DNA of 64,000 bases from Escherichia coli O157:H7 (lineage in GTDB: Bacteria; Pseudomonadota; Gammaproteobacteria; Enterobacterales; Enterobacteriaceae): the NCBI RefSeq assembly GCF_013167455.1, contig NZ_CP038328.1; one strand, written 5' to 3'. Made by a program: the position numbers. Below, one piece after another: positions 38,671 through 39,061 of the stretch. Positions within the stretch are counted from its first letter, which is position 1, and every line of letters starts with the position of its first letter.

Positions 38671-39061
38671 TAAATCCATCGCTGATGGTGCAGAATTTTA
38701 GTACCCGATAAAAGCGGCTTCCTGACAGGAGGCCGTTTTGTTTTGCAGCCCGCCTCAACGCACTTATTTAGTGCATCCATCTGCTATCCCCAGCTGATTA
38801 AGTAAATTTTTTGTATCCACATCATCACACAATCGTTACATAAAGATTGTTTTTTCATCAGGTTTTACGCTAAATAATCACTGTGTTGAGTGCACAATTT
38901 TAGCGCACCAGTTTGGTGCCCCAGAATGGTGCATCTTCAGGGTGTTGCCCTATAAATCGTGCATCACGTTTTTGCCGCATCTCGAAAAATCAATGAGTTG
39001 CAAAACTGGCACGATTTTTTCATATATGTGAATGTCACGCAGGGGATCGTCCCGTGGATAG

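What the first reader, a model, noticed from the sequence alone, without database searches (positions are those of the whole stretch)
38905..39023. Sigma-54 promoter with T-rich spacer and NtrC sites upstream of glnH
The TGGCAC element at 39007-39012 is followed by a T6 tract instead of a clean GC/TTGCA -12 element, and two NtrC-like dyads sit about 80-100 bp further upstream. This matches my recollection of glnHp2 and explains the long leader before glnH.
Basis: partly seen in the sequence, partly recalled or inferred. Interest (0 to 1): 0.2.

Follow-up and report, generated by a model that had tools for sequence, protein, structure and literature searches.

The report
Known nitrogen-regulated glnH promoter (glnHp2)

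Summary
TGGCAC lies at 39007-39012, followed by GA, a T6 run (39015-39020) and CAT, so the -12 element reads TTTCA instead of TTGCA. Two overlapping NtrC-type dyads lie at 38904-38920 and 38917-38933, and an exact IHF consensus at 38988-39000. The window is E. coli (O157-like): ompX-rhtA-dps-glnHPQ-ybiO. The 17-mer CTGGCACGATTTTTTCA is identical to the published sigma-54 ChIP-seq motif for glnH. Published numbering puts +1 at 39034, which places the dyad centres at -122 and -109.

The sigma-54 hexamers alone are no better than chance, but the whole arrangement appeared in 0 of 300 simulated sequences. An alignment of 28 Enterobacteriaceae shows all elements conserved. The G of the -12 GC is never present (T in 26, C in 2). 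The enhancer-to-promoter spacing is 84 bp, changing only by 1 bp or by 11 bp, one helical turn.

Verdict: already known, low interest. One correction: the glnHp2 leader is only 43 nt. What is long is the 403-bp dps-glnH spacer, which also holds the sigma-70 promoter glnHp1.

Noticed in passing: a third, invariant NtrC-like dyad at 38759-38775, upstream of glnHp1. None of the papers I could read mention it.

The parts
39007..39022 (+). Sigma-54 core promoter of glnHp2. The -24 element is TGGCAC (GG at 39008-9). The -12 element is TTTCA (39018-22), with T at 39020 where the consensus has G. The T6 run is 39015-20.
   Evidence: Identical to the sigma-54 ChIP-seq motif CTGGCACGATTTTTTCA for glnH. 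Mean column identity 0.95 over 28 Enterobacteriaceae, against 0.62 for the whole spacer. Position 39020 is T in 26 and C in 2 species, never G.
39034..39034 (+). Transcription start (+1) of glnHp2, derived from published numbering.
   Evidence: Mao et al. 2007 describe a fragment running from -289 to +63 of glnHp2. Its primers match window 38745 onward and end at 39096, and both ends give +1 = 39034. Bonocora et al. list a distance of 44 to glnH. The start was not mapped here.
38904..38920 (.). Upstream NtrC dyad CGCACCAGTTTGGTGCC, centre 38912 = -122.
   Evidence: GCAC and A at 38905-08 and 38910, and C at 38919, are invariant in 28 species. NtrC binding at this locus is reported by ChIP-seq and gSELEX.
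38917..38933 (.). Downstream NtrC dyad TGCCCCAGAATGGTGCA, centre 38925 = -109. It overlaps the first dyad by 4 bp.
   Evidence: GTGC at 38929-32 is invariant in 28 species. The distance from its centre to the -24 GG is 84 bp in 22 of 28 species, 83 or 85 in 4, and 73 in 2.
38988..39000 (+). IHF core consensus AATCAATGAGTTG (WATCAANNNNTTR), preceded by an A-run, lying between the enhancer and the core promoter.
   Evidence: Exact match. Conserved as AAACAAnnnnTTG with C, A and TT invariant; mean column identity 0.88. Published IHF footprint and ChIP-qPCR use an amplicon equal to window 38926-39030. IHF is needed for looping at glnHp2.
38811..38883 (+). Sigma-70 promoter glnHp1. It comprises a degenerate CRP site (38811-38832), an inferred -35 TTGTTT (38848-53), an inferred -10 TAAATA (38871-76) and +1 at about 38883.
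   Evidence: The CRP site sequence, and its centre at -61.5, are from Mao et al.. The -35 and -10 hexamers are my inference from spacing and conservation (mean identity 0.81). The generic sigma-70 scan does not find it, which fits its reported weakness.
38759..38775 (.). Distal NtrC-like dyad CGCACTTATTTAGTGCA, just after the dps terminator. It lies about -267 from the glnHp2 start and about -116 from the glnHp1 start. Whether it belongs to the system is uncertain.
   Evidence: Three mismatches in E. coli, but GCAC...GC is invariant in 28 of 28 species and other genera have 0-1 mismatches. Spacing to the -109 site is 157-160 bp. No binding data were found.
39034..39076 (+). The 43-nt 5' UTR of the glnHp2 transcript. 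It has a conserved GGGG...CCC(C) stem near the 5' end (39043-39053) and the Shine-Dalgarno sequence AAGGAA (39066-71).
   Evidence: mean identity 0.93 for 39039-58. The predicted fold is no more stable than shuffles (z = -0.45).
39077..39823 (+). glnH, the periplasmic glutamine-binding protein and first gene of glnHPQ.
   Evidence: ORF; RefSeq annotation.

Best explanation
Window 38904-39034 is the E. coli glnHp2 promoter, the nitrogen-regulated sigma-54 promoter of the glutamine ABC-transporter operon glnHPQ. Sigma-54 RNA polymerase binds TGGCAC-N5-TTTCA and forms a closed complex that cannot open on its own. Under nitrogen limitation, NtrB phosphorylates NtrC. Phosphorylated NtrC assembles on the two overlapping dyads centred at -122 and -109. 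IHF, bound at the AATCAATGAGTTG site between them, bends the DNA so that the NtrC oligomer touches the polymerase, and ATP hydrolysis drives open-complex formation. Transcription starts at about 39034, 43 nt before the glnH ATG. The non-consensus -12 element (T for G) makes polymerase binding weak. The promoter therefore depends on the IHF-set geometry and on NtrC bound in cis. Because the same NtrC sites lie at +22 to +50 of the upstream sigma-70 promoter glnHp1, they probably also repress glnHp1. What is shown here: sequence identity, motif positions, conservation and helical-phase-preserving spacing. What comes from the literature: sigma-54, NtrC and IHF binding and the p1/p2 starts. What is inferred: the role of the weak -12 element and NtrC repression of p1.
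For: Identity. The window is 100% identical to E. coli O157:H7 chromosomes across dps-glnH, and 5421 of 5426 complete E. coli genomes carry the region. The spacer differs from K-12 at 6 of 403 positions, none at a consensus base of any element.

Literature.
- Sigma-54 ChIP-seq peak OS06 has the motif CTGGCACGATTTTTTCA for glnH, marked as confirmed in EcoCyc, and glnH is up-regulated on sigma-54 overexpression.
- Salmonella has TGGCATGATTTTTTCATT, bound by sigma-54, and glnHPQ is 7.1-fold rpoN-dependent.
- NtrC ChIP-seq peak at glnHPQ; RpoN and NtrC gSELEX peaks in the glnH-dps spacer.
- IHF is needed for looping and is detected at the site.
- The promoter is reported to be weak.

Computed here.
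- The composite motif appears in 0 of 300 simulations.
- In 28 Enterobacteriaceae every element is conserved above background, and the -12 G is absent in all 28.
- Enhancer-to-promoter spacing is 84 bp, varying only by 1 bp or by 11 bp.
- The same core sits 66-82 bp before the ATG in most Erwiniaceae, Yersiniaceae and Hafnia (two Yersinia have it further upstream). NtrC-like sites are almost confined to loci that have the sigma-54 core.
Against: Nothing in the data contradicts it. Caveats:
- The primary papers (Claverie-Martin and Magasanik 1991, 1992; Carmona et al. 1997; Nohno and Saito 1987) are not held. The -109/-122 figures, and the statement that the weak -12 element causes IHF dependence, rest on my recollection plus the secondary sources cited.
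- No experiment was done on this O157-like allele.
- The published NtrC ChIP-seq interval maps to about 38962-39042, some 80 bp from the dyads. That is within the method's resolution but not base-precise.
- One genome-wide IHF study found the glnH signal below its threshold.
Confidence: 0.96

Rival explanations
1. The motifs co-occur by chance. glnH is transcribed only from the sigma-70 promoter glnHp1, and TGGCAC is one of the many transcriptionally inert sigma-54 binding sites.
For: The sigma-54 pattern alone is at chance level in the window (3 matches against 3.38 expected). The -12 element is non-consensus. Many E. coli sigma-54 sites are inert (theme of the paper).
Against: The composite arrangement appears in 0 of 300 simulations. 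There is deep conservation with helical-phase-preserving spacing. Primer extension detects p2. glnH is one of only five genes with an upstream intergenic sigma-54 site that were up-regulated on sigma-54 overexpression. Expression is 7.1-fold rpoN-dependent in Salmonella.
Confidence: 0.01
2. The NtrC dyads act mainly as an operator that represses glnHp1, as NtrC does at glnAp1, rather than as the enhancer of glnHp2.
For: The dyads lie at +22 to +50 of the inferred glnHp1 start (numbering). A further conserved NtrC-like dyad lies at about -116 of glnHp1, so p1 is flanked on both sides. The glnH and glnA promoter architectures are described as very similar.
Against: The spacing from the dyads to the sigma-54 core is held at 84 bp, with changes of 1 or 11 bp only. 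That is the signature of a face-of-helix constraint with the downstream promoter, not with p1. NtrC-P dependence of p2 is published. The two roles are compatible, so this is better seen as an added function than as a true rival.
Confidence: 0.03

Closest known systems
E. coli K-12 glnHp2 (glnHPQ promoter P2; Claverie-Martin and Magasanik 1991)
   Same: It is the same locus. The core 17-mer is identical and the spacer is 397/403 identical. The dyad centres fall at -122 and -109 under the published numbering, with the IHF site between and glnHp1 in tandem upstream.
   Different: There are six single-base differences in the spacer. Three fall inside or beside elements but at non-consensus positions: 38912 T for A at the centre of the -122 dyad, 38994 T for G in the N4 of the IHF site, and 38944 G for A.
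E. coli glnAp2 with glnAp1 (glnALG)
   Same: A tandem sigma-70 P1 and sigma-54 P2. NtrC-P acts from upstream enhancer sites that overlap or adjoin P1. CRP activates P1 and represses P2.
   Different: The glnAp2 sites are separate (-140 and -108). It is reported to be a strong promoter that transcribes well without IHF. glnHp2 has overlapping sites 13 bp apart, a -12 element lacking the G, and IHF dependence.
Klebsiella pneumoniae nifH and nifU promoters (NifA, IHF, sigma-54)
   Same: An activator bound about 100 bp upstream, with an IHF bend between it and the core promoter to assist looping.
   Different: The activator is different (NifA), as are the upstream activator sequence and the regulon.

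Membership tests
E. coli glnHp2 (the specific characterised promoter) | Sequence identity with the characterised promoter, and position upstream of glnH and downstream of dps | tested here: met
   17 of 17 identity with the published motif. 397 of 403 identity with the K-12 spacer. dps-glnHPQ annotation.
Sigma-54 (RpoN) dependent promoter | -24 element TGGCAC with an invariant GG, spaced so that the -12 element begins 11 bp after the T of TGGCAC | tested here: met
   TGGCAC at 39007-12 and TTTCA at 39018-22. TGGCA is invariant in 28 species.
Sigma-54 (RpoN) dependent promoter | -12 element with the GC dinucleotide (TTGCW) | tested here: not met
   The sequence is TC, not GC: 39020 is T, and T or C in all 28 Enterobacteriaceae. 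This deviation is itself a property of the characterised glnHp2 and of its Salmonella counterpart, both of which bind sigma-54 in vivo. It therefore marks a weak member rather than a non-member.
Sigma-54 (RpoN) dependent promoter | Sigma-54 holoenzyme binds, and transcription depends on rpoN | not testable with these tools
   Literature only: ChIP-seq and overexpression in K-12, ChIP-chip and a 7.1-fold rpoN effect in Salmonella, gSELEX.
NtrC-activated enhancer promoter | At least two NtrC dyads (TGCACC-N5-GGTGCA type) about 100-150 bp upstream of the start | tested here: met
   38904-20 (2 mismatches) and 38917-33 (1 mismatch), centred at -122 and -109. Conserved in 28 species.
NtrC-activated enhancer promoter | A fixed helical phase between the enhancer and the core promoter | tested here: met
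   Spacing is 84 bp in 22 of 28 species, 83 or 85 in 4, and 73 (a loss of 11 bp) in 2.
NtrC-activated enhancer promoter | NtrC-P binds and activates under nitrogen limitation | not testable with these tools
   Literature only: NtrC ChIP-seq peak at glnHPQ, gSELEX, NtrC-P dependence.
IHF-assisted sigma-54 promoter | An IHF consensus (WATCAANNNNTTR) between the enhancer and the core promoter | tested here: met
   Exact match at 38988-39000, conserved as AAACAAnnnnTTG. Binding itself is from the literature only.

The most novel reading that the evidence does not exclude
The invariant NtrC-like dyad at 38759-38775 may be a functional third NtrC site that the papers I could read do not describe. 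TGCAC-N7-GTGCA is conserved in 28 of 28 Enterobacteriaceae and sits 157-160 bp, about 15 helical turns, from the -109 site. Together with the -122/-109 sites it brackets the sigma-70 promoter glnHp1. NtrC bound at both positions could loop out and silence glnHp1 while activating glnHp2, or could stabilise the NtrC oligomer. A related point is that the missing G of the -12 element, conserved in Enterobacteriaceae, Erwiniaceae, Hafnia and most of the Yersiniaceae sampled (Serratia and Yersinia, but not Rahnella or Rouxiella), suggests that promoter weakness is itself under selection.
Probability: 0.3. Interest if true: 0.3.

Novelty: already known. Interest (0 to 1): 0.08.

Why it matters
It matters little as a discovery. 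glnHp2 has been a model for enhancer-dependent, IHF-assisted sigma-54 transcription since 1991. The check shows that a tool-free reader identified a real regulatory module from sequence alone. The comparison across species adds modest detail. The defective -12 element and the helical phasing of the enhancer are conserved across families of Enterobacterales. The module is absent from Pectobacteriaceae. A conserved distal NtrC-like dyad upstream of glnHp1 may deserve a footprinting experiment.

Tried and rejected
1. Primary papers. PNAS 1991 88:1631, PNAS 1997 94:9568, NAR 1987 15:2777 and MMBR 2001 (PMC99035) are not held. Positions were therefore reconstructed from primer coordinates in Mao et al. 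2007 and from ChIP-seq tables.

2. Four NtrC-like 17-mers at an exact 13-bp period (38891, 38904, 38917, 38930) suggested a phased array of four sites. I rejected this for the two outer ones. Their columns are unconserved outside Escherichia (mean identity 0.43 and 0.48). Erwiniaceae and Yersiniaceae do, however, show three or more phased GCACC half-sites.

3. The generic sigma-70 scan found no promoter in 38600-39150, so glnHp1 could not be confirmed by that tool. Its position comes from the published CRP site plus conservation.

4. The terminator scan did not report the dps terminator hairpin seen by eye at about 38711-38745. It returned only a weak site on the minus strand.

5. Rfam found nothing in or near the region.

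6. The leader hairpin was folded. It is not more stable than shuffled sequences (z = -0.45), so no structural claim is made.

7. The strict IHF consensus is present only in E. coli and E. albertii. The alignment shows that other genera have a one-mismatch version, AAACAA for AATCAA, so I treat the site as conserved rather than lineage-specific.

8. The supplement of the IHF looping paper, which lists glnHp2 sequences, is not held.

Full report
**Locus.** The window around the finding carries ompX (-), rhtA, dps (38170-38673), glnH (39077-39823), glnP, glnQ and ybiO, all on the + strand. A 601-bp query across the dps-glnH junction is 100% identical to E. coli O157:H7 chromosomes and is found in 5421 of 5426 complete E. 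coli genomes. The genes under the match are annotated dps and glnH. The finding therefore lies in the 403-bp dps-glnH intergenic region (38674-39076) of E. coli.

**Observation.**
- The sequence reads ...AAAACTGGCACGATTTTTTCATATATG....
- TGGCAC is at 39007-39012, GA at 39013-14, a T6 run at 39015-39020 and CAT at 39021-23.
- Against TGGCACNNNNNTTGCW there is one mismatch, T for G at 39020.
- Upstream are CGCACCAGTTTGGTGCC (38904-38920, 2 mismatches to TGCACCNNNNNGGTGCA) and TGCCCCAGAATGGTGCA (38917-38933, 1 mismatch), which overlap by 4 bp.
- An exact IHF consensus, AATCAATGAGTTG, lies at 38988-39000.

**Chance.** The sigma-54 pattern alone is uninformative: 3 matches against 3.38 expected in 64 kb. 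NtrC-like matches with up to 2 mismatches are also at the background rate overall (3 against 3.25). The arrangement is what matters. A sigma-54 core with at least two NtrC-like sites 60-200 bp upstream occurs once in the window and in 0 of 300 Markov-1 simulated 64-kb sequences.

**Identification.**
- Bonocora et al. 2015 list sigma-54 ChIP-seq peak OS06 with the motif CTGGCACGATTTTTTCA for glnH. It is marked as confirmed in EcoCyc and is identical to window 39006-39022. glnH was one of the few genes induced by sigma-54 overexpression.
- The Salmonella counterpart, TGGCATGATTTTTTCATT, binds sigma-54, and glnHPQ is 7.1-fold rpoN-dependent.
- Mao et al. [quoted passage not shown] Both were seen by primer extension.
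- Their fragment '-289 to +63 of glnHp2' is defined by primers that match window 38745 onward and end at 39096. Both ends give +1 = 39034.
- On that numbering the dyad centres (38912 and 38925) are at -122 and -109. These are the positions I recall from Claverie-Martin and Magasanik 1991, a paper that is not held.
- NtrC ChIP-seq and RpoN and NtrC gSELEX both report this spacer.
- After converting genome versions with the K-12 record, the sigma-54 motif centre maps to within 1 bp of the window motif. The NtrC ChIP interval maps to about 38962-39042, which is near the dyads but not on them.
- IHF dependence of looping at glnHp2 is stated. An IHF study used an amplicon equal to window 38926-39030 as its glnH site.
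- The promoter is described as weak and naturally IHF-bound.
- The window differs from K-12 at 6 of 403 spacer positions, none at a consensus base.

**Independent test by conservation.** I scanned one genome per species for a back-translated GlnH peptide ([11 protein letters not shown]), a probe that is blind to the promoter. It returned 120 loci.
- dps-glnH synteny holds across Enterobacterales.
- A sigma-54 core lies 66-82 bp before the ATG in Enterobacteriaceae, Erwiniaceae, Serratia, one of the three Yersinia and Hafnia. In the other two Yersinia the same core lies at -133 and -275.
- NtrC-like sites are almost confined to the loci that have this core.
- Pectobacterium, Dickeya and Brenneria have no such promoter within 200 bp.

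An alignment of 28 Enterobacteriaceae gives a clear footprint. Mean column identity is:

| Element | Mean column identity |
|---|---|
| Sigma-54 core | 0.95 |
| IHF core | 0.88 |
| NtrC dyads | 0.79-0.80 |
| glnHp1 block | 0.81 |
| Leader | 0.91-0.93 |
| Whole spacer | 0.62 |

Two details support the mechanism. First, the base at the position of the -12 G is T in 26 species and C in 2, never G. Rahnella and Rouxiella are the only lineages with TTGCA or TTGCT. The non-consensus -12 element is therefore maintained, not accidental. Second, the distance from the -109 dyad centre to the -24 GG is 84 bp in 22 species, 83 or 85 in 4, and 73 in 2. The only sizeable change is a loss of 11 bp, one helical turn. 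That is what a face-of-helix constraint between the enhancer, the IHF bend and the polymerase predicts.

**Mechanism.** Sigma-54 holoenzyme forms a weak closed complex on TGGCAC-N5-TTTCA. NtrC-P assembles on the overlapping dyads, IHF bends the intervening DNA, and ATP hydrolysis by NtrC opens the complex. Transcription starts at about 39034. Binding and dependence come from the literature. The positions, conservation and phasing are shown here. That the weak -12 element is what imposes dependence on IHF and on NtrC bound in cis is inference plus my recollection of the Magasanik-laboratory papers.

The glnHp2 leader is 43 nt. The long feature is the spacer, which also holds glnHp1. The published degenerate CRP site ttgTATCCacatcaTCACAcaa is window 38811-38832, centred at -61.5, which gives a p1 start of about 38883. 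I infer -35 TTGTTT (38848-53) and -10 TAAATA (38871-76); both are conserved. The p1 transcript has a leader of about 194 nt that runs through the NtrC, IHF and sigma-54 elements. The NtrC dyads lie at +22 to +50 of p1, so repression of p1 by NtrC is plausible, as at glnAp1.

**Verdict.** The feature is already known and of low interest.

**Side observations.** The main one is a third NtrC-like dyad at 38759-38775. It has 3 mismatches in E. coli, but GCAC...GC is invariant in 28 of 28 species, other genera have 0-1 mismatches, and it sits 157-160 bp from the -109 site. It lies just after the dps terminator and upstream of glnHp1. I found no mention of it in the papers I could read. The rest are listed separately.

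Noticed in passing
window 38759-38775: A third NtrC-like dyad, CGCACTTATTTAGTGCA, lies right after the dps terminator and upstream of glnHp1. GCAC...GC is invariant in 28 of 28 Enterobacteriaceae, and other genera are closer to consensus (Superficieibacter TGCACCTTAAAGGTGCA, 0 mismatches). Spacing to the -109 NtrC site is 157-160 bp. Hafnia and Rahnella also have one, at a different spacing. The papers I could read do not mention it, and I found no binding data.
   Followed up: partly
window 39020 (the -12 element) and loci L003-L122: The missing G of the sigma-54 -12 GC is conserved in every aligned Enterobacteriaceae (T in 26, C in 2) and in Erwiniaceae, Serratia, Yersinia and Hafnia. Rahnella and Rouxiella have a canonical TTGCA or TTGCT. 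Pectobacterium, Dickeya and Brenneria have no sigma-54 promoter within 200 bp of glnH.
   Followed up: partly
A2 alignment; Pluralibacter gergoviae L037 and Phytobacter massiliensis L097: These two species have lost exactly 11 bp, one helical turn, between the NtrC sites and the sigma-54 core: 73 bp instead of 84 bp. All other species vary by at most 1 bp.
   Followed up: yes
window 39039-39058: The 5' end of the glnHp2 transcript carries a highly conserved GGGG-loop-CCC(C) stem, with GGGG and two of the C positions invariant in 28 species, followed by GUGGAU and the Shine-Dalgarno AAGGAA, giving two GGA motifs 12 nt apart. The predicted stability is unremarkable (z = -0.45). It could be a 5' stabiliser hairpin or a protein or sRNA site. 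This was not resolved.
   Followed up: partly
window 38826-38853: A conserved inverted repeat, ACAATC-N10-GATTGT, sits within CACACAATCGTTACATAAAGATTGTTTT. It overlaps the inferred -35 of glnHp1 and is nearly invariant across Enterobacteriaceae. It may be only the p1 promoter and its CRP half-site, or it may be a site for an unidentified regulator.
   Followed up: no
window 38945-38963: A conserved TTGC...GTGCA block (GTGC nearly invariant), centred at about -80 of glnHp2, lies between the NtrC dyads and the IHF site. It resembles an NtrC site whose spacer is one base too long, and it recalls the low-affinity 'governor' sites of glnAp2.
   Followed up: no
window 38891-38907 and 38930-38946: Two further weak NtrC-like 17-mers (3 mismatches each) flank the known pair at an exact 13-bp period, making four in a row in Escherichia. 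The outer two are not conserved in other Enterobacteriaceae.
   Followed up: yes
window 22686-22763 (-) and 49289-49359 (+): Two full-length matches to Rfam naRNA4 (RF02564, nucleoid-associated noncoding RNA 4), scoring 79.6 and 78.4 bits. They are the only Rfam gathering-score hits in the 64-kb window.
   Followed up: no
loci L004, L088, L063 (Yersinia): The same sigma-54 core, TGGCACGATCTTTTCA, lies at very different distances from the glnH ATG in three Yersinia species (-275, -133 and -80). This implies lineage-specific insertions in the leader.
   Followed up: no
window 39824-39960 (glnH-glnP spacer): According to the literature, the sRNA GlnZ from the glnA 3' UTR represses glnP by pairing just upstream of its Shine-Dalgarno sequence. 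The operon therefore has a second, post-transcriptional nitrogen-linked control downstream of this promoter. I did not examine this in the window.
   Followed up: no
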